Source: Caedibacter taeniospiralis
GTDB taxonomy: Bacteria > Pseudomonadota > Gammaproteobacteria > Francisellales > Francisellaceae
DNA length: 32,000 nt
Reading direction: 5' to 3'
Assembly (NCBI RefSeq): GCF_002803295.2
Contig: NZ_PGGB02000012.1
Location: 6,364 to 38,363, forward strand
Shown: piece after piece, positions 9,648 through 13,222 of the stretch
Numbering within the stretch: the first letter of the stretch is position 1
How the letters are laid out: each line of letters opens with the position of its first letter
Translations under genes and position numbers: made by a program
The notes under the pieces: generated by a model
What the model was told of the DNA's origin: nothing
The model's input: the letters and a program-made list of their open reading frames with translations, nothing else
Databases searched by the model: none

Positions 9648-9735
9648 ACTAATAACTATTTTTGACTATCGATTTTTAAAGATGTCGCCGATAATAGCAA
9701 GTTTTAGAAATGATTGTAATCTGTGATTCGGCATT

Positions 9736-10101
9736 ATGTATAAGCTTAAATTAAAGAACGTTATCATAAATGCCTATTTAGGGGTTTATGACTTTGAGCA
9801 ACAGACAGCCCAGGAGGTTTTGTTAGATTTGTGTGTTGCTTATCATCAGATACCCAAGGGGTGTTTCAGTGATCAACTTGAAGACACCGTGTGTTATGCT
9901 GACATTAATGCACTTTTAATTCAAACTGCATTAAAAAAACGCTATCAGTTGATAGAGCATCTGGCATACACTTTACTACATGCTGTAGTCGATATGTTGA
10001 AAGAGTACAGTGTTGATATATATCTTGAACTGCATAAAAAACCACCCTTGGATAATGTTTCTGTGGCAAGCTTTTGTGTGGAGCATTTATGTACCAGGTA
10101 G
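9736..10101 (+). CDS. folB: Dihydroneopterin aldolase
   Basis: 121 aa. GVYDFEQQTAQEVLLDLCV...DTVCYADI...LIEHLA is a FolB-like pattern. It lies immediately upstream of, and overlaps, the folK-folP gene. Confidence 0.8.
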   Translation: MYKLKLKNVIINAYLGVYDFEQQTAQEVLLDLCVAYHQIPKGCFSDQLEDTVCYADINALLIQTALKKRYQLIEHLAYTLLHAVVDMLKEYSVDIYLELHKKPPLDNVSVASFCVEHLCTR

Positions 10102-11396
10102 TGTTGGGTCTGGGGAGTAATATGGGGCAAAAGCTTCATTATTTACGTCAAGCAGTCATGTTAATTGCACAGGAACTTGGTGAGATTAAAAAATTTTCAC
10201 CGATCTATCAAACAAAAGCATTATTGCCTAATAATGCCCAGAGTAACTGGGATATTGATTATTATAATGTAGCCGTTTTAATCAGTACGACCCTCTCCCC
10301 TGAAAGGCTGCTAGATAGCATCAAGCGTATTGAAATACAACTCGGGCGTGATCCAAATCATGCGTTTTGGTCACCAAGAGAAATTGACATTGATATTCTC
10401 TGTTACGATGACTTAGTCTATCAGAGTGAGCGGCTGCAGATCCCACATCGGTACCTGTTGGAGCGAAACTTTGCTTTACAGCCCCTCCTGGATGTATGGT
10501 CAAATTGGTGCTATTCAGAGCGCGCTATCAACCTGTATGCCAGGCTTAAAACCATGCCAGCATTAACAATGGCACCATTTACCTTGTCTGGCAGCCAAAT
10601 TATGGCAATCGTTAATTTATCGGCAGACTCGTTTTCTACACACGCGGAAGGCGTTGTAGCGATAGAGCAATTTGCACAATATATTGTCAATCTTGTGAAC
10701 TTGGGTGCGGAAGTGATTGATTTAGGTGCCGAGAGCACAAAACCAAATGCTATTGCAAAATCAGCAGAAAATCATTGGCAGACCCTTATGCCCTATCTTG
10801 AGATTGTCAATGAGCTCGTTAAAACAAAAATACTTCCACTTCATCTTCAGGTCAGTATTGACACGTATCATGCAGGGGTCGTTGAGAAAGCATTAGCATA
10901 TGAGTGTGTGACGATGATTAATGATGTTTATGGTATTGAAGAACAAGAAATAGCAAAATTGCTCTCAAATAAACCGATAGCATATGTTTTTATGCACCAG
11001 CTGGGTAAAGCAGGTACTGAGTACTTGAGTCCAGATAGAGATCCAGTGGAGGAGCTTATTAGCTATGGGCAGGGTAAAATTACAAAACTGCTTGGCTATG
11101 GACTTAAGCGTGAGCAGTTAATTTTTGATATGGGTATTGGTTTTGGTAAGTATCCGTATCAGGCGCAACATCTCTTGCAACATGTGGAGAAAATAAAAGC
11201 GAGTCTTGGGATAAGCCTTCTTGTCGGGCACTCACGTAAAGCTTCTGTGATGCCGTGTGTTATAGGAGCTAATAATGACCTAAAAGATCTGGCAACAGCA
11301 ATGATCACCAGGTCGTTGATTCATAAAAATATCGATTACATTCGTGTGCATAATGTCAGTTTTGCGCGCGTGGCTAAACAGTTACCCTTCATGTAG
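10089..11396 (+). CDS. folKP: Bifunctional 6-hydroxymethyl-dihydropterin pyrophosphokinase (HPPK) / dihydropteroate synthase (DHPS) fusion
   Basis: The N-terminal MYQVVLGLGSNMG...SPIYQTKAL...REIDIDIL...IPHRYLLERNFALQPL is HPPK. The C-terminal IMAIVNLSADSF...IDLGAESTKP...SIDTY...INDV...GIGFGK...GHSRK is DHPS. It is one uninterrupted frame. The ATG at 10089 overlaps the folB stop by 13 nt. Confidence 0.85.
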   Translation: MYQVVLGLGSNMGQKLHYLRQAVMLIAQELGEIKKFSPIYQTKALLPNNAQSNWDIDYYNVAVLISTTLSPERLLDSIKRIEIQLGRDPNHAFWSPREIDIDILCYDDLVYQSERLQIPHRYLLERNFALQPLLDVWSNWCYSERAINLYARLKTMPALTMAPFTLSGSQIMAIVNLSADSFSTHAEGVVAIEQFAQYIVNLVNLGAEVIDLGAESTKPNAIAKSAENHWQTLMPYLEIVNELVKTKILPLHLQVSIDTYHAGVVEKALAYECVTMINDVYGIEEQEIAKLLSNKPIAYVFMHQLGKAGTEYLSPDRDPVEELISYGQGKITKLLGYGLKREQLIFDMGIGFGKYPYQAQHLLQHVEKIKASLGISLLVGHSRKASVMPCVIGANNDLKDLATAMITRSLIHKNIDYIRVHNVSFARVAKQLPFM

Positions 11397-11418: not shown

Positions 11419-11886
11419 TTATTTCTTAGTGCTTTTTAGGTTATCCCAAGACTTTTGCCAGCGATCAATGTTATCTCGAGCCACAGTATTGAAATAATCA
11501 CCAGGACTCATTGCAGAGCTGTTTTTTTTGCTTAAGGCTTCAGATGTCTGCTTCTGCCCCAGGTACAAATCAAGCGTTTTATTAAAACATAACACCAGTG
11601 TGTGTTGCATGTCGGTGCCATAAGACTTAATGACATGAGCTAAAAAATCATTGCTAAACATTTGTCGTGGGCTGTTCTCTTCCAGATCATTAATTATCTG
11701 CATTAATACGCTTCGGGTGATGTCCTTACCTGTTTTGTTTTCGATAACCACAATATTTTCGTGCTCAAGAACAAGCTTATGCACCCCTTCGGTAGTGATG
11801 TAGCAACTGGTTTGAGTGTCATACAAGCGCCGATTAGGATATTTTTTAATAAAGCGGATCTTGTCTTTATCATCTTGTATTTCCAT
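11419..11886 (-). CDS. phaR: Polyhydroxyalkanoate synthesis repressor PhaR
   Basis: IKKYPNRRLYDTQTSCYITTEGVHKLVLEHENIVVIENKTGKDITRSVLMQII is the characteristic PhaR N-terminal DNA-binding domain. Confidence 0.85.
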   Translation of the reverse strand: MEIQDDKDKIRFIKKYPNRRLYDTQTSCYITTEGVHKLVLEHENIVVIENKTGKDITRSVLMQIINDLEENSPRQMFSNDFLAHVIKSYGTDMQHTLVLCFNKTLDLYLGQKQTSEALSKKNSSAMSPGDYFNTVARDNIDRWQKSWDNLKSTKK

Positions 11887-12118
11887 GAGAGATTATCGCC
11901 GTATTGAAAGAGTTTGTGGTCCTAGTCTATCACAGATCCATGCTTATCGGTAATTAAGAAAACAGATAGAGCAAGATAGGCAATAAAGAAAGTGCGAAAG
12001 AGATGATGCAAAAATCAAAGAATATTTGAGGTTAACGCAGAGAAATCTCATTATTCTTAGCGTATTTACGTATATACTAATGGGCGTCTTTGAATAAGGG
12101 ATAAGATTAGGAGAAACT

Positions 12119-13222
12119 ATGTCCAAGTTAGAGCAAGAACAGCATTCAAGCGGTTTTGAACACGGTAGAATTAAAGTCATTGGTGTTGGCGGCGGCGGTG
12201 GTAATGCCGTGAGTTACATGGTGGAAAAAGGTCTGCAGGGTGCCAAGATTTACGCCTTAAATACTGACAAACAAGCACTAGATAAAAATCTTGCTCCAAA
12301 TAAGGTGCAAATAGGTGAATTTATTTCTAAAGGTTTGGGTGCTGGAGCTAACCCTGAGGTGGGTTTAAAAGCAGCTCAGGAAAGTATGCATTATATTGAA
12401 GAGGCGATTGCAGATTGTGATATGTTGTTTATTACAGCAGGGATGGGGGGAGGAACTGGAACGGGTGCTGCTGGTATTATCGCCGAGGTCGCCAAACGCA
12501 AAGGTATTGTGACTGTTGGTGTGGTGACAACTCCATTTTCTTTTGAAGGGCGCAGACGTGAAGTGGTAGCAAGACAAGGAATTTCAGCACTACAGGAGCA
12601 TGTCAATTCACTTATTGTCATTCCAAATGACAAACTACGAAAATCACTGGGTGATAAGACAACCTTAATGGCTGCATTTCATGCCGCAAATGATGTTCTC
12701 TACAATGCCATGTCGTCAATGACAGGAATTATACGTACCCCTGGGCATATCAACGTTGACTTCGCCGATGTGAAAACAGTGATGGCTTCTCCTGGTTTAG
12801 CCGTTATCGGAACGGGACACGCAAGTGGCGAAGATCGGATATTAAAAGCAGTTGACAAAGCGATTTCATGTGATTTGTTGGAAGATATTGAGCTTAGAAA
12901 TGCCAAAGGTTTGTTGGTGTGTGTCACATCAAGCAATGATATTTCACTGGGAGAGTTTACTGAACTGGGAGATAAAGTGGCAGAGATTGCTTCTGCTGAT
13001 GCGCCTGTGATTATAGGAACTTCCATCAAAGAAGATATGGGTGATGCGGTTGATATTACGATTATCGTTACGGGTTTTGATGTTGATGTCACCACAGAGC
13101 GCTATAACACGATTCGCCAGGTAAAGGCGCAACAACAGCAGGCAGGATCACTGCATTTAAGCGAAGGTCAAACTCTTGCGCGTAAAGTCAATGTGGACGG
13201 TAAGCCCGATACAAATTCTTAA
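12119..13222 (+). CDS. ftsZ: FtsZ-family tubulin-like GTPase with an intact GTPase core, no conserved C-terminal peptide, and no dcw-cluster context
   Basis: IKVIGVGGGGGNAV, NTDKQAL, GLGAGANPEVG, GMGGGTGTGAAG, TTPFSFEGRRR, IPNDKL, and the T7 loop NVDFADVKTVM. A TAGGAG RBS sits 7 nt upstream of the ATG. The tail is ...VKAQQQQAGSLHLSEGQTLARKVNVDGKPDTNS. Confidence 0.85.
   Translation: MSKLEQEQHSSGFEHGRIKVIGVGGGGGNAVSYMVEKGLQGAKIYALNTDKQALDKNLAPNKVQIGEFISKGLGAGANPEVGLKAAQESMHYIEEAIADCDMLFITAGMGGGTGTGAAGIIAEVAKRKGIVTVGVVTTPFSFEGRRREVVARQGISALQEHVNSLIVIPNDKLRKSLGDKTTLMAAFHAANDVLYNAMSSMTGIIRTPGHINVDFADVKTVMASPGLAVIGTGHASGEDRILKAVDKAISCDLLEDIELRNAKGLLVCVTSSNDISLGEFTELGDKVAEIASADAPVIIGTSIKEDMGDAVDITIIVTGFDVDVTTERYNTIRQVKAQQQQAGSLHLSEGQTLARKVNVDGKPDTNS

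What the first reader, a model, noticed from the sequence alone, without database searches (positions are those of the whole stretch)
12119..13222. FtsZ homologue outside any dcw context, without the C-terminal FtsA/ZipA-binding peptide, divergent from phaR
Seen in the sequence:
- The 367-aa protein keeps every tubulin/FtsZ GTP-binding element: GGGGGNAV, GMGGGTGTG, TTPFSFEGRRR, and the T7 synergy loop NVDFADV.
- Its neighbours are phaR (divergent, 232-bp intergenic region) and a convergent DUF1841 gene only 12 nt away. There is no ftsQ, ftsA or lpxC.
- After the globular domain (ending ...ITIIVTGFDV) there is only a short Gln-rich tail ending ...VNVDGKPDTNS. It has nothing resembling the conserved terminal peptide (E. 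coli ...DIPAFLRKQ) that tethers FtsZ to FtsA/ZipA.

Established knowledge: gammaproteobacterial division ftsZ normally sits in ftsQ-ftsA-ftsZ-lpxC. Truncated FtsZ paralogues with specialised roles exist elsewhere, for example FtsZm in magnetotactic alphaproteobacteria and FtsZ2 in rhizobia.

Inference: this is either a second, specialised, probably polymerising FtsZ paralogue whose partner or tether is unknown, or a relocated sole FtsZ with a non-canonical membrane-anchoring mode. The divergent arrangement with the PHB-granule regulator PhaR could hint at co-regulation, but that is pure speculation.
Basis: partly seen in the sequence, partly recalled or inferred. Interest (0 to 1): 0.7.

Follow-up and report, generated by a model that had tools for sequence, protein, structure and literature searches.

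The report
Second, tail-truncated FtsZ in Fastidiosibacteraceae
This gene encodes an intact, strongly conserved extra copy of the cell-division protein FtsZ that has lost the peptide used to dock onto membrane anchors; it is kept by a whole family of bacteria related to Francisella, apparently alongside their ordinary FtsZ, so it adds a gammaproteobacterial case to the known class of truncated FtsZ duplicates.

Summary
Window 12119-13222 (+) encodes a 367-aa FtsZ with all GTP-binding and T7-loop motifs, no dcw neighbours and no C-terminal conserved peptide (CCTP).

The window is Caedibacter taeniospiralis (family Fastidiosibacteraceae), not Legionellales.

The protein belongs to a sharply separated FtsZ clade. 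That clade is found in Caedibacter, Cysteiniphilum, Fastidiosibacter, Facilibium, Fangia and related metagenome-assembled genomes (MAGs). It always lies outside dcw, in changing contexts, and always lacks the CCTP. Its globular domain is under very strong purifying selection (dN/dS about 0.02).

A published orthogroup table for eight Fastidiosibacteraceae genomes lists two FtsZ orthogroups plus FtsA, FtsQ and MinCDE. The order of orthogroup numbers reproduces this window's gene order. That assigns this gene to one orthogroup (OG0000798) and places the other (OG0000420) beside ftsA-ftsQ-ddl.

So this is most likely a second, family-wide FtsZ paralogue, not a relocated sole FtsZ. I never saw the second FtsZ's sequence, so this step rests on the table alone.

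By analogy with plastid FtsZ1 and rhizobial FtsZ1, it probably co-assembles with the dcw-linked FtsZ and modulates the Z ring. This is inferred, not shown.

The phaR adjacency is lineage-specific. The gene carries its own conserved upstream block, including a 16-bp palindrome.

Verdict: new member of a known kind, moderate interest.

The parts
12119..13222 (+). Coding sequence of the FtsZ paralogue (367 aa plus stop codon).
   Evidence: ORF list. Pfam Tubulin and FtsZ_C. TIGR00065 at 373 bits, above the 295 cutoff. 99% identical to C. taeniospiralis FtsZ, P0001.
12119..12163 (+). N-terminal extension (residues 1-15) that is polar and predicted disordered. It precedes the conserved SGFEHG segment.
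   Evidence: pLDDT is below 50 for residues 1-14. The extension varies in length and sequence across the clade and is absent from canonical FtsZs, which start MFEL.
12167..13078 (+). Globular FtsZ core (residues 17-320): GTPase domain plus C-terminal subdomain.
   Evidence: Pfam stretches 17-176 and 226-321. AF2 model matches solved FtsZ structures at TM 0.94. dN/dS is 0.015-0.02 against Cysteiniphilum and Fastidiosibacter. Fourteen clade-specific signature residues.
12188..12211 (+). T1 glycine-rich loop GGGGGNAV (residues 24-31).
   Evidence: Position computed. Invariant in the clade.
12440..12466 (+). T4 tubulin signature GMGGGTGTG (residues 108-116).
   Evidence: Invariant in the clade.
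12752..12772 (+). T7 synergy loop NVDFADV (residues 212-218). N212, D214 and D217 align with S. aureus N208, D210 and D213.
   Evidence: Invariant in the clade.
13079..13219 (+). C-terminal tail (residues 321-367). It is a short linker with a Gln run and has no canonical CCTP.
   Evidence: pLDDT is below 50 for residues 328-367. The CCTP pattern is absent. Tail dN/dS is 0.12-0.17, relaxed but not neutral.
13163..13186 (+). Clade-conserved tail motif EGQTLARK (residues 349-356). It is a candidate short linear binding motif.
   Evidence: The motif appears as EGQTL[AV]RK in Caedibacter, Cysteiniphilum and Fastidiosibacter. It appears as PLARK, SLIRK, PLRK and VIKR in Facilibium, P0005, Fangia and P0004. 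MAFFT aligns it with the canonical linker motif PTIARK rather than with the CCTP.
12036..12085 (+). Conserved upstream block, probably the gene's own promoter region, including a -10-like TATACT at 12073-12078.
   Evidence: The block is nearly identical in Caedibacter, Cysteiniphilum, Fastidiosibacter and the P0004 organism, although the upstream gene differs. The consensus promoter scan did not call it.
12062..12077 (.). 16-bp near-perfect palindrome GTATTTACGTATATAC, a candidate operator overlapping the -10-like hexamer.
   Evidence: Unique in the window, with 0.02 matches expected by chance. The core is found once, at the same position upstream of ftsZ, in 6 family loci and in none of 90 other loci.
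12109..12113 (+). Shine-Dalgarno sequence AGGAG, 5 nt upstream of the ATG.
   Evidence: Sequence. Conserved as TTAGGAGA in relatives.

Best explanation
The gene encodes a functional, GTP-hydrolysing, polymerising FtsZ that is a second copy (paralogue). The copy is conserved throughout Fastidiosibacteraceae and related MAG lineages. These genomes appear also to carry a dcw-linked FtsZ next to ftsA-ftsQ-ddl.

The paralogue descends from a full-length gammaproteobacterial FtsZ. Deep-branching members still end in decayed CCTP-like peptides. The crown group kept only the linker up to an L-A-R-K motif.

Without the CCTP it cannot dock on FtsA, ZipA or MinC in the canonical way. It therefore most likely reaches the division site by co-assembling with the CCTP-bearing dcw FtsZ. 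There it would alter filament turnover or divisome activation, as plastid FtsZ1 does with FtsZ2 and A. tumefaciens FtsZ1 does with FtsZ_AT.

It is transcribed from its own conserved promoter region, which carries a palindromic candidate operator.

**Shown here:** identity, conservation, lack of CCTP, non-dcw location and purifying selection.
**Shown indirectly, from a published table:** coexistence with a second FtsZ and with FtsA.
**Inferred by analogy:** co-assembly and a modulatory role.
For: **It is an intact FtsZ.**
- Pfam, TIGR00065, sequence matches to solved FtsZ structures and a confident FtsZ-fold model all agree.
- All catalytic motifs are present.

**It forms a distinct clade.**
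- Members score at least 572 bits against the clade profile; the next best protein scores 458.
- Fourteen signature residues are shared by no other FtsZ, with a maximum of 5 of 14 in any outsider.

**It is present and tail-less in every sampled genus.** These are Caedibacter, five Cysteiniphilum, Fastidiosibacter, Facilibium and Fangia, plus MAGs.

**Its context is always non-dcw and variable**.

**It is under strong purifying selection.**
- Globular dN/dS is 0.015-0.02 and tail dN/dS is 0.12-0.17.
- It is retained in the reduced 1.32-Mb C. taeniospiralis genome.

**A second FtsZ exists in the same genomes.**
- Table S5 of PMC12213064 covers eight Fastidiosibacteraceae genomes and contains no Francisella.
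- It lists two K03531 FtsZ orthogroups, OG0000420 and OG0000798. Both are scored as ancestral to the family.
- It also lists FtsA, FtsQ, Ddl and MinC/D/E.
- OG0000795-806 reproduce this window's gene order: phhA, pcbD, dacB, FtsZ, lptF/G, galE, recG, ABC-F. This gene is therefore OG0000798 (one search compared).
- OG0000420 is collinear with ftsA-ftsQ-ddl at four anchor points: yidD~rpmH, rimP~infB, ftsZ~ftsA, minD~minC/E.

**The CCTP decayed within the clade.** P0010 ends ...DIPVDINHFLKKK and P0005 ends ...KLDLSEF.

**Precedents exist.** Truncated FtsZ paralogues tune division in Hyphomicrobiales. Plastid FtsZ1/FtsZ2 are a further case (titles and abstracts).
Against: - I never saw the sequence of the second FtsZ. 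Its existence rests on a KO label given to an orthogroup representative and on orthogroup size classes and ordering.
- Whether the second FtsZ has a CCTP is unknown.
- The second FtsZ did not appear among the best 120 hits of either homology search. It is therefore no closer to this protein than FtsZs of unrelated gammaproteobacterial orders. That fits an ancient duplication or a horizontal acquisition, which I cannot distinguish.
- Co-assembly is inferred only by analogy.
- Constraint this strong (dN/dS about 0.02) and retention in a 1.3-Mb endosymbiont genome are more than one would expect for a dispensable tuner such as A. tumefaciens FtsZ1.
- The conserved LARK motif suggests a partner of its own.
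Confidence: 0.6

Rival explanations
1. It is a separate FtsZ cytoskeleton with a function other than tuning the Z ring. It would form its own filaments and be recruited or anchored by an unknown partner that reads the conserved C-terminal LARK motif or the N-terminal extension.
For: - It has its own conserved promoter region and palindromic candidate operator.
- It has a clade-conserved tail motif.
- Fourteen signature substitutions include S200, I230 and C268. These align with S. aureus G196, M226 and N263. From my own knowledge, these positions line the interdomain cleft, which would suggest retuned assembly behaviour.
- It is under very strong constraint.
- RS3 and XS4 lost this gene together with peptidoglycan, FtsA and FtsQ, while XS4 kept the other FtsZ.
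Against: - No conserved neighbouring gene that could be a partner appears in any of the contexts examined.
- All characterised bacterial truncated FtsZ paralogues localise with, or depend on, the primary FtsZ (own knowledge).
- Nothing in the tail resembles a membrane-targeting amphipathic helix (direct reading of the tail sequence).
Confidence: 0.2
2. It is the only FtsZ of the organism. It has been moved out of the dcw cluster and is tethered to the membrane by a non-canonical route.
For: - It passes the ftsZ equivalog threshold.
- It is single-copy in each family locus scan.
- It is extremely constrained.
- No second Fastidiosibacteraceae FtsZ appeared among the top 120 hits of two searches.
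- The dcw cluster is visibly broken after murF in one relative.
Against: - Two FtsZ orthogroups of size class 8-9 genes exist for eight genomes.
- Each orthogroup is present on both sides of the family tree.
- One of them is collinear with ftsA-ftsQ-ddl.
- XS4 retains the other orthogroup, not this one.
Confidence: 0.07
3. Its function is coupled to PhaR and PHB granules, through co-regulation from the divergent promoter region.
For: It is divergent from a PHB_acc_N/PhaR-like gene across 232 bp. The pair is conserved in Cysteiniphilum and Caedibacter sp. MAG-148.
Against: - The pair is absent in Fastidiosibacter, Facilibium, Fangia and the MAGs.
- The conserved upstream block stays with ftsZ when the upstream gene is recF or plsY.
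- The phaR-proximal half of the spacer is poorly conserved.
Confidence: 0.03
4. It is an artefact or a decaying gene: a truncated or frameshifted ftsZ produced by assembly error or pseudogenisation.
For: The extreme C-terminus differs between this window and the 99%-identical P0001 (...GKPDTNS against ...GKGTPT).
Against: - The same architecture is found in at least 9 independent genomes and several MAGs.
- Globular dN/dS is about 0.02.
- All catalytic residues are intact.
- The ribosome-binding site and upstream block are conserved.
Confidence: 0.01

Closest known systems
Canonical gammaproteobacterial division FtsZ (E. coli, K. pneumoniae, P. aeruginosa; TIGR00065)
   Same: - Same fold and domain pair.
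- All GTP-binding and T7 residues are present.
- 52-54% identity.
- It keeps a linker motif homologous to the canonical PTIARK/PTVMR linker motif.
   Different: - No CCTP.
- Not next to ftsA or lpxC.
- An N-terminal extension is present.
- Fourteen clade-specific substitutions.
- It coexists with another FtsZ orthogroup.
Truncated FtsZ paralogues of Hyphomicrobiales (A. tumefaciens FtsZ1, S. meliloti FtsZ2)
   Same: It is an extra FtsZ with an intact GTPase domain and no CCTP, encoded away from dcw alongside an essential full-length FtsZ. A role in tuning division has been proposed for these paralogues.
   Different: - Independent origin: the nearest relatives of this protein are gammaproteobacterial FtsZs.
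- It keeps a tail of about 47 residues with a conserved terminal motif, rather than ending at the globular domain.
- Constraint is much stronger, and it is conserved across the whole family, including a 1.3-Mb endosymbiont.
Plastid FtsZ1 (partner of FtsZ2) in plants and green algae
   Same: It is one of two FtsZs in one compartment. The member lacking the C-terminal core motif is thought to co-assemble with the motif-bearing one and to change filament turnover (PMC3494859, PMC8142252 abstracts).
   Different: The plastid pair has a cyanobacterial origin and uses a different anchor (ARC6). Co-assembly has not been tested here, and the tail of the partner FtsZ has not been seen.
FtsZm of magnetotactic Magnetospirillum
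   Same: It is a C-terminally truncated FtsZ paralogue outside dcw (own knowledge).
   Different: FtsZm is alphaproteobacterial and is encoded in the magnetosome island with a specialised link to that organelle. No comparable conserved gene neighbourhood exists here.

Membership tests
FtsZ (tubulin/FtsZ superfamily, TIGR00065 equivalog) | Tubulin/FtsZ GTPase domain with the G-box GGGTGTG, plus the FtsZ C-terminal subdomain. | tested here: met
   PF00091 at 4.8e-49 and PF12327 at 2.1e-26. GMGGGTGTG at residues 108-116.
FtsZ (tubulin/FtsZ superfamily, TIGR00065 equivalog) | Whole-protein score above NCBI's curated equivalog cutoff. | tested here: met
   373.3 bits against a cutoff of 295.2.
FtsZ (tubulin/FtsZ superfamily, TIGR00065 equivalog) | T7 synergy loop N-x-D-x-x-D, needed for GTP hydrolysis in the polymer. 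| tested here: met
   NVDFADV at residues 212-218. N212, D214 and D217 align with S. aureus N208, D210 and D213.
FtsZ (tubulin/FtsZ superfamily, TIGR00065 equivalog) | FtsZ three-dimensional fold. | tested here: met
   AF2 model has pLDDT 78.5 overall and 85-94 in the core. Foldseek matches KpFtsZ, EcFtsZ and PaFtsZ at TM 0.94 and rmsd 1.6-1.8 Å.
FtsZ (tubulin/FtsZ superfamily, TIGR00065 equivalog) | GTP-dependent polymerisation. | not testable with these tools
   This needs purified protein. It is inferred only from intact motifs and strong purifying selection.
Primary (dcw-linked) bacterial division FtsZ | C-terminal conserved peptide that binds FtsA, ZipA and MinC. | tested here: not met
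   The pattern is present in 159 of 161 nearest FtsZs. It is absent from this protein and from all 11 clade members.
Primary (dcw-linked) bacterial division FtsZ | Gene located in ftsQ-ftsA-ftsZ(-lpxC). | tested here: not met
   No dcw gene is found in the window or in 14 family loci. By contrast, the comparators P0025 and P0013 sit in full dcw clusters.
Primary (dcw-linked) bacterial division FtsZ | It is the only FtsZ of the genome. | tested here: not met
   This was tested indirectly. Two K03531 orthogroups are listed for the eight family genomes, and this gene is OG0000798. I did not scan the genomes myself.
Truncated accessory FtsZ paralogues (rhizobial FtsZ1/FtsZ2, FtsZm and plastid FtsZ1 type) | Coexists with a full-length FtsZ in the same genome. 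| tested here: met
   The orthogroup table of PMC12213064 shows this. OG0000420 is collinear with ftsA-ftsQ-ddl. The evidence is indirect, and the tail of the partner FtsZ was not seen.
Truncated accessory FtsZ paralogues (rhizobial FtsZ1/FtsZ2, FtsZm and plastid FtsZ1 type) | Intact GTPase core but loss of the C-terminal docking peptide. | tested here: met
Truncated accessory FtsZ paralogues (rhizobial FtsZ1/FtsZ2, FtsZm and plastid FtsZ1 type) | Localises or co-assembles with the primary FtsZ. | not testable with these tools
   This needs microscopy or biochemistry, or at least multimer structure prediction using the partner sequence, which I could not retrieve.
Truncated accessory FtsZ paralogues (rhizobial FtsZ1/FtsZ2, FtsZm and plastid FtsZ1 type) | Common descent with the alphaproteobacterial or plastid paralogues. 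| tested here: not met
   All nearest non-clade hits are gammaproteobacterial FtsZs at 47-55% identity. The similarity is therefore analogous: an independent duplication or acquisition.

The most novel reading that the evidence does not exclude
The paralogue is not just a Z-ring tuner. It would be the core of a separately regulated FtsZ-based system in a gammaproteobacterial family. Its expression would be controlled through the conserved 16-bp palindrome. Its assembly switch would be retuned through substitutions at interdomain-cleft positions (S200, I230, C268). A still unknown partner would recognise the C-terminal LARK motif in place of the FtsA/ZipA-CCTP interaction.
Probability: 0.2. Interest if true: 0.7.

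Novelty: new member of a known kind. Interest (0 to 1): 0.45.

Why it matters
- **Rarity.** Most bacteria have a single ftsZ. Only a handful of independent duplications are on record, and why truncated copies are maintained is an open question.
- **Why this case is clean.** It comes from Gammaproteobacteria and is conserved across a whole family under very strong selection. It is retained even in a 1.3-Mb Paramecium endosymbiont. Within the clade, members range from ones with a decayed CCTP-like end to ones with none.
- **Testability.** The family includes culturable organisms (Cysteiniphilum, an emerging human pathogen, plus Fangia and Fastidiosibacter). Localisation, depletion and co-polymerisation experiments are therefore feasible.
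- **Practical caveat.** Genome annotation pipelines name both copies 'cell division protein FtsZ'. Studies that use ftsZ as a single-copy marker or as a drug target in this family could pick the wrong gene.

Tried and rejected
- **Direct search for a second FtsZ or FtsA in family genomes.** The single genome-contig scan used query-specific peptides. It returned only the eight orthologous loci.
- **Profile search.** It showed no intermediate or second family FtsZ in the top 120 hits.
- **Walking into the family's dcw cluster.** I spent the third protein search on a family-specific MurF fragment from L001. It found nothing.
- **Metagenome scan.** It fell back on universal FtsZ peptides and returned only generic FtsZ loci of at most 54% identity.
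- **Retrieving a Francisella FtsZ.** I tried 50%-identity cluster representatives plus cluster name look-ups. None was named Francisella or Fastidiosibacteraceae.
- **tblastn of dcw proteins.** MraY through LpxC, plus ZapD, from a canonical locus hit only ftsZ in the window and family loci.
- **Literature.** Searches on Caedibacter or Fastidiosibacteraceae with FtsZ or cell division found no description. The Caedibacter and Cysteiniphilum genome papers hold no usable gene tables.
- **Consensus promoter scan.** It found nothing convincing in the spacer.
- **Reading TLARK as a remnant of the CCTP.** I consider this less likely than homology to the canonical linker motif PTIARK. TLARK matches PTIARK at 4 of 7 positions and the CCTP at 2 of 7. 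Deep-branching members also keep QDLxK upstream of it. This is not settled.
Full report
**1.

Window 12119-13222 (+) is an ORF of 367 codons plus a stop codon. An AGGAG ribosome-binding site sits 5 nt upstream of its ATG.

It matches Pfam Tubulin (4.8e-49) and FtsZ_C (2.1e-26). It exceeds NCBI's curated cutoff for the ftsZ equivalog model TIGR00065 (373 against 295 bits).

- T1 GGGGGNAV at residues 24-31
- T4 GMGGGTGTG at residues 108-116
- TTPFSFEGRRR at residues 137-147
- T7 NVDFADV at residues 212-218

The nearest solved structures are E. coli, K. pneumoniae and P. aeruginosa FtsZ (E = 8e-99). An AlphaFold model built on the clade alignment has a confident FtsZ core. It superposes on those structures at TM 0.94 and 1.6-1.8 Å. 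Residues 1-14 and 328-367 are predicted disordered.

The neighbours are as described. A PhaR-like gene lies divergently across 232 bp, and a DUF1841 gene converges with a 12-nt gap. The rest of the window holds housekeeping genes: dacB, folB, folK-folP, nth, rnfB-like, rsmD, lptG, lptF, an epimerase, recG, carB and an ABC-F protein. It holds no ftsQ, ftsA, lpxC, ddl or mur gene.

**2. Organism and relatives**

The protein is 99% identical to the FtsZ annotated in Caedibacter taeniospiralis. This is an obligate Paramecium endosymbiont of the family Fastidiosibacteraceae, order Thiotrichales. It is not Legionellales. Its genome is 1.32 Mb at 41% GC (PMC7297999).

Close relatives of the protein occur in:
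- five Cysteiniphilum genomes and a Caedibacter MAG (90-92% identity)
- Fastidiosibacter lacustris (87%)
- Facilibium subflavum (77%)
- Fangia hongkongensis (69%)
- several MAGs labelled Francisellaceae or unnamed (59-77%)

The group is sharply bounded. Against a profile of the clade, members score at least 572 bits and the next protein scores 458. Fourteen positions carry a residue shared by at least 10 of 11 clade members and found in fewer than 10% of 312 other FtsZs. No outsider has more than 5 of the 14.

The next-best hits are ordinary gammaproteobacterial FtsZs at 47-55% identity. The two I checked sit in complete mraY...ftsQ-ftsA-ftsZ-lpxC clusters and end in LDIPAFLRRQAD.

**3. The tail**

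A strict CCTP pattern, [ILVM]P.[FYW][ILVM][RK], is present in the last 35 residues of 159 of the 161 nearest non-clade FtsZs. It is present in 0 of 11 clade members. The missing peptide is therefore a property of the clade, not an error in this assembly.

The tail is not random, however.
- Crown-group members end ...L(T/N)EGQTL(A/V)RK(V/A)NP(D/E)xN.
- Facilibium, Fangia and two MAG lineages keep (P/S)L(A/I)RK or VIKR at the same place.
- MAFFT aligns this with a motif in the linker of canonical gammaproteobacterial FtsZs (YQDLEKPTIARKR, PTVQRQ, PTITRR) rather than with the CCTP.
- The deep-branching members P0009 and P0010 keep QDLFKKS/DMFKQS at the position of QDLEKPT.
- P0010 still ends ...SDIPVDINHFLKKK and P0005 ends ...KLDLSEF. 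Both look like decayed CCTPs.
- P0011 stops right after the globular domain.

The simplest reading is descent from a full-length FtsZ, followed by decay and then loss of the docking peptide.

**4. Selection**

Against Cysteiniphilum and Fastidiosibacter, the globular domain has pN of 0.037-0.045 while synonymous sites are near saturation. This gives dN/dS of about 0.015-0.02. The tail gives 0.12-0.17. This is a working protein under housekeeping-grade constraint, not a decaying copy.

**5. Context**

The gene is never in a dcw cluster, and its neighbours change from lineage to lineage.

| Lineage | Neighbours of ftsZ |
|---|---|
| Caedibacter | phaR, DUF1841 |
| Cysteiniphilum, MAG-148 | phaR upstream, other genes downstream |
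| Fastidiosibacter | recF upstream |
| P0004 organism | plsY, rluD-like/bamD; murF ends 9.5 kb upstream and is followed by non-dcw genes and IS200-type transposases |
| Fangia | MFS transporter, bamE |
| P0009, P0010, P0005 | amino-acid permease upstream; alanine dehydrogenase-family (AlaDh_PNT) gene or dus downstream |
| P0011 | prs/rplY, 1.7 kb after rsmH-ftsL-ftsI |

What does travel with the gene is about 50 bp of upstream sequence. This block includes a -10-like TATACT and a 16-bp near-perfect palindrome, GTATTTACGTATATAC (12062-12077).

The palindrome is unique in the window, with 0.02 matches expected by chance. Its core occurs exactly once, at the same position, in six family loci and in none of 90 other loci. 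The phaR-proximal half of the spacer is poorly conserved. The phaR link is therefore incidental, and the gene appears to be its own, possibly regulated, transcription unit.

**6. Sole FtsZ or paralogue?**

My own database routes to the rest of these genomes failed (see 'tried and rejected'). The deciding evidence comes from a published table.

PMC12213064 ran OrthoFinder on the endosymbionts RS3 and XS4 plus eight Fastidiosibacteraceae genomes:
- C. taeniospiralis GCF_002803295.2
- four Cysteiniphilum
- Fangia
- Fastidiosibacter
- Facilibium

No Francisella genome was included. An orthogroup was flagged 'ancestral' if it was present in Fangia or Facilibium and also in Cysteiniphilum, Fastidiosibacter or Caedibacter.

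Table S5 lists two orthogroups annotated K03531 FtsZ, and both are flagged ancestral:
- OG0000420, with 0 genes in RS3 and 1 in XS4
- OG0000798, with 0 genes in both

It also lists FtsA (OG0000695), FtsQ (696), Ddl (697), FtsL, FtsB, LpxC, MurC, MinC, MinD and MinE.

OrthoFinder numbers orthogroups by size. Within a size class, the numbering here follows the gene order of the first species, Caedibacter. OG0000795-806 read phhA, pcbD, dacB, FtsZ, unknown, lptF/G, galE, unknown, recG, unknown, unknown, ABC-F. This is exactly the order of this window (one search compared). In the neighbouring size class, rsmD and carB are consecutive (OG469, OG470). The window's gene is therefore OG0000798.

OG0000798 sits among single-copy housekeeping orthogroups that RS3 and XS4 have lost, which is the 8-gene class. 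OG0000420 sits in the 9-gene class, meaning eight genomes plus XS4. Together they imply about two FtsZ genes per genome.

The two size-class lists are collinear at four anchor points:
- yidD (417) with rpmH (692)
- rimP (419) with infB (693)
- FtsZ (420) with FtsA-FtsQ-Ddl (695-697)
- MinD (427) with MinC-MinE (702-703)

This places the other FtsZ beside ftsA-ftsQ-ddl in Caedibacter.

I regard this as good but indirect evidence. I have not seen that protein, its tail or its exact position.

**7. How it most likely works**

*Shown here:*
- an intact, constrained FtsZ core
- no canonical docking peptide
- a location outside dcw
- its own conserved upstream block

*Shown indirectly:* coexistence with a dcw-linked FtsZ, FtsA and MinCDE.

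*Inferred:* An FtsZ without a CCTP cannot bind FtsA, ZipA or MinC in the canonical manner (established knowledge for E. coli FtsZ). It most plausibly reaches the division site by co-polymerising with the CCTP-bearing copy. There it would change filament stability or turnover, or divisome activation. Two precedents support this:
- Plastid FtsZ1 lacks the core motif and counterbalances FtsZ2 filament stability (PMC3494859, PMC8142252).
- A. tumefaciens FtsZ1 is truncated and inhibits division when overexpressed (bioRxiv 10.1101/2025.09.29.679267).

Three of the clade's signature residues (S200, I230, C268) align with S. aureus FtsZ G196, M226 and N263. From my own knowledge, these positions line the interdomain cleft that opens on polymerisation and binds PC190723. 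A G196S mutant structure is in the PDB (5xdv/5xdw). Changes at these positions would fit altered assembly kinetics, but this is speculation.

The main rival, at about 0.2, is that the protein builds a separate structure and uses the conserved LARK motif to bind a partner of its own. The very strong constraint and the candidate operator argue that it is more than a dispensable tuner. The absence of any conserved neighbouring gene argues against a dedicated partner operon.

**8. Origin**

The second family FtsZ did not appear among the 120 best hits of either search. It is therefore no more similar to this protein than FtsZs of unrelated gammaproteobacterial orders. No Francisella protein falls in the clade.

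The paralogue thus arose by one of two routes. It may be an old duplication that predates the radiation of Fastidiosibacteraceae and related MAG lineages. Or it may have been acquired from another gammaproteobacterium. I cannot distinguish these without the partner and Francisella sequences.

**9. Novelty and verdict**

I found no description of a second FtsZ in Caedibacter, Fastidiosibacteraceae or any gammaproteobacterium in the searchable literature. The two orthogroups sit uncommented in a supplementary table.

Truncated FtsZ paralogues as a kind are well known. This is therefore a new member of a known kind, of independent origin, with some distinctive features:
- a retained linker motif
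- a graded series of CCTP loss within the clade
- very strong constraint
- a palindromic upstream element

Interest is moderate, at 0.45.

Noticed in passing
window 12062-12077 (also L001 9948-9961, L008 9946-9959, L009 9949-9962, L010 9946-9959, L011 8679-8692, L014 9946-9959): A 16-bp near-perfect palindrome, GTATTTACGTATATAC, overlaps a -10-like TATACT. It lies about 40-55 nt upstream of the paralogue's start codon in several genera, even though the upstream gene differs. It looks like an operator for an unknown dimeric regulator.
   Followed up: partly
window 13187-13222 compared with P0001: The window protein and the 99%-identical database C. taeniospiralis FtsZ differ only at the extreme C-terminus (...VNVDGKPDTNS, 367 aa, against ...VNVDGKGTPT, 366 aa). 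This suggests a strain-level indel. The residues after LARKVN appear free to vary.
   Followed up: no
L010 about 9730-9890 (Cysteiniphilum sp. JM-1, phaR-ftsZ spacer): An insertion of about 157 nt is present only in this strain's phaR-ftsZ intergenic region. It may be a small mobile or repeat element.
   Followed up: no
window 10074-11396 (+), overlapping folB 9736-10101: A single ORF fuses HPPK (FolK) and the pterin-binding dihydropteroate synthase (FolP) domains. Its predicted start is TTG, and it overlaps the end of folB.
   Followed up: no
window 11419-11886 (-): The PhaR-like protein is short (155 aa). It scores just under the TIGR01848 PhaR cutoff (107.7 against 109.45 bits). Only the N-terminal DNA-binding domain matches Pfam.
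   Followed up: no
L097 10001-11002 and L098 3993-4994 (metagenome contigs encoding P0011): A clade member of 333 aa ends immediately after the globular domain. It lies 1.7 kb downstream of rsmH-ftsL-ftsI, separated from them by rplY and prs. This looks like a collapsed dcw region in an unidentified relative.
   Followed up: partly
L001 1-9800 (relative encoding P0004, 782-kb contig): murF is followed directly by an rpiR-like gene, the riboflavin operon and IS200/IS605-type Y1 transposase genes, instead of mraY. The dcw cluster is therefore broken after murF in this relative. ftsZ lies 9.5 kb downstream on the same strand.
   Followed up: partly
PMC12213064 Supplementary Table S5 (not in the window): The peptidoglycan-less endosymbiont RS3 has no gene in either FtsZ orthogroup. 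XS4 keeps only the dcw-type FtsZ orthogroup plus MinD, and it lacks FtsA, FtsQ, MinC and MinE.
   Followed up: no
window protein residues S200, I230, C268 (nt 12716-12718, 12806-12808, 12920-12922): Three clade-specific substitutions align with S. aureus FtsZ G196, M226 and N263. From my own knowledge, these are interdomain-cleft positions linked to PC190723 binding and resistance. The paralogue naturally carries the G196S-type change.
   Followed up: partly
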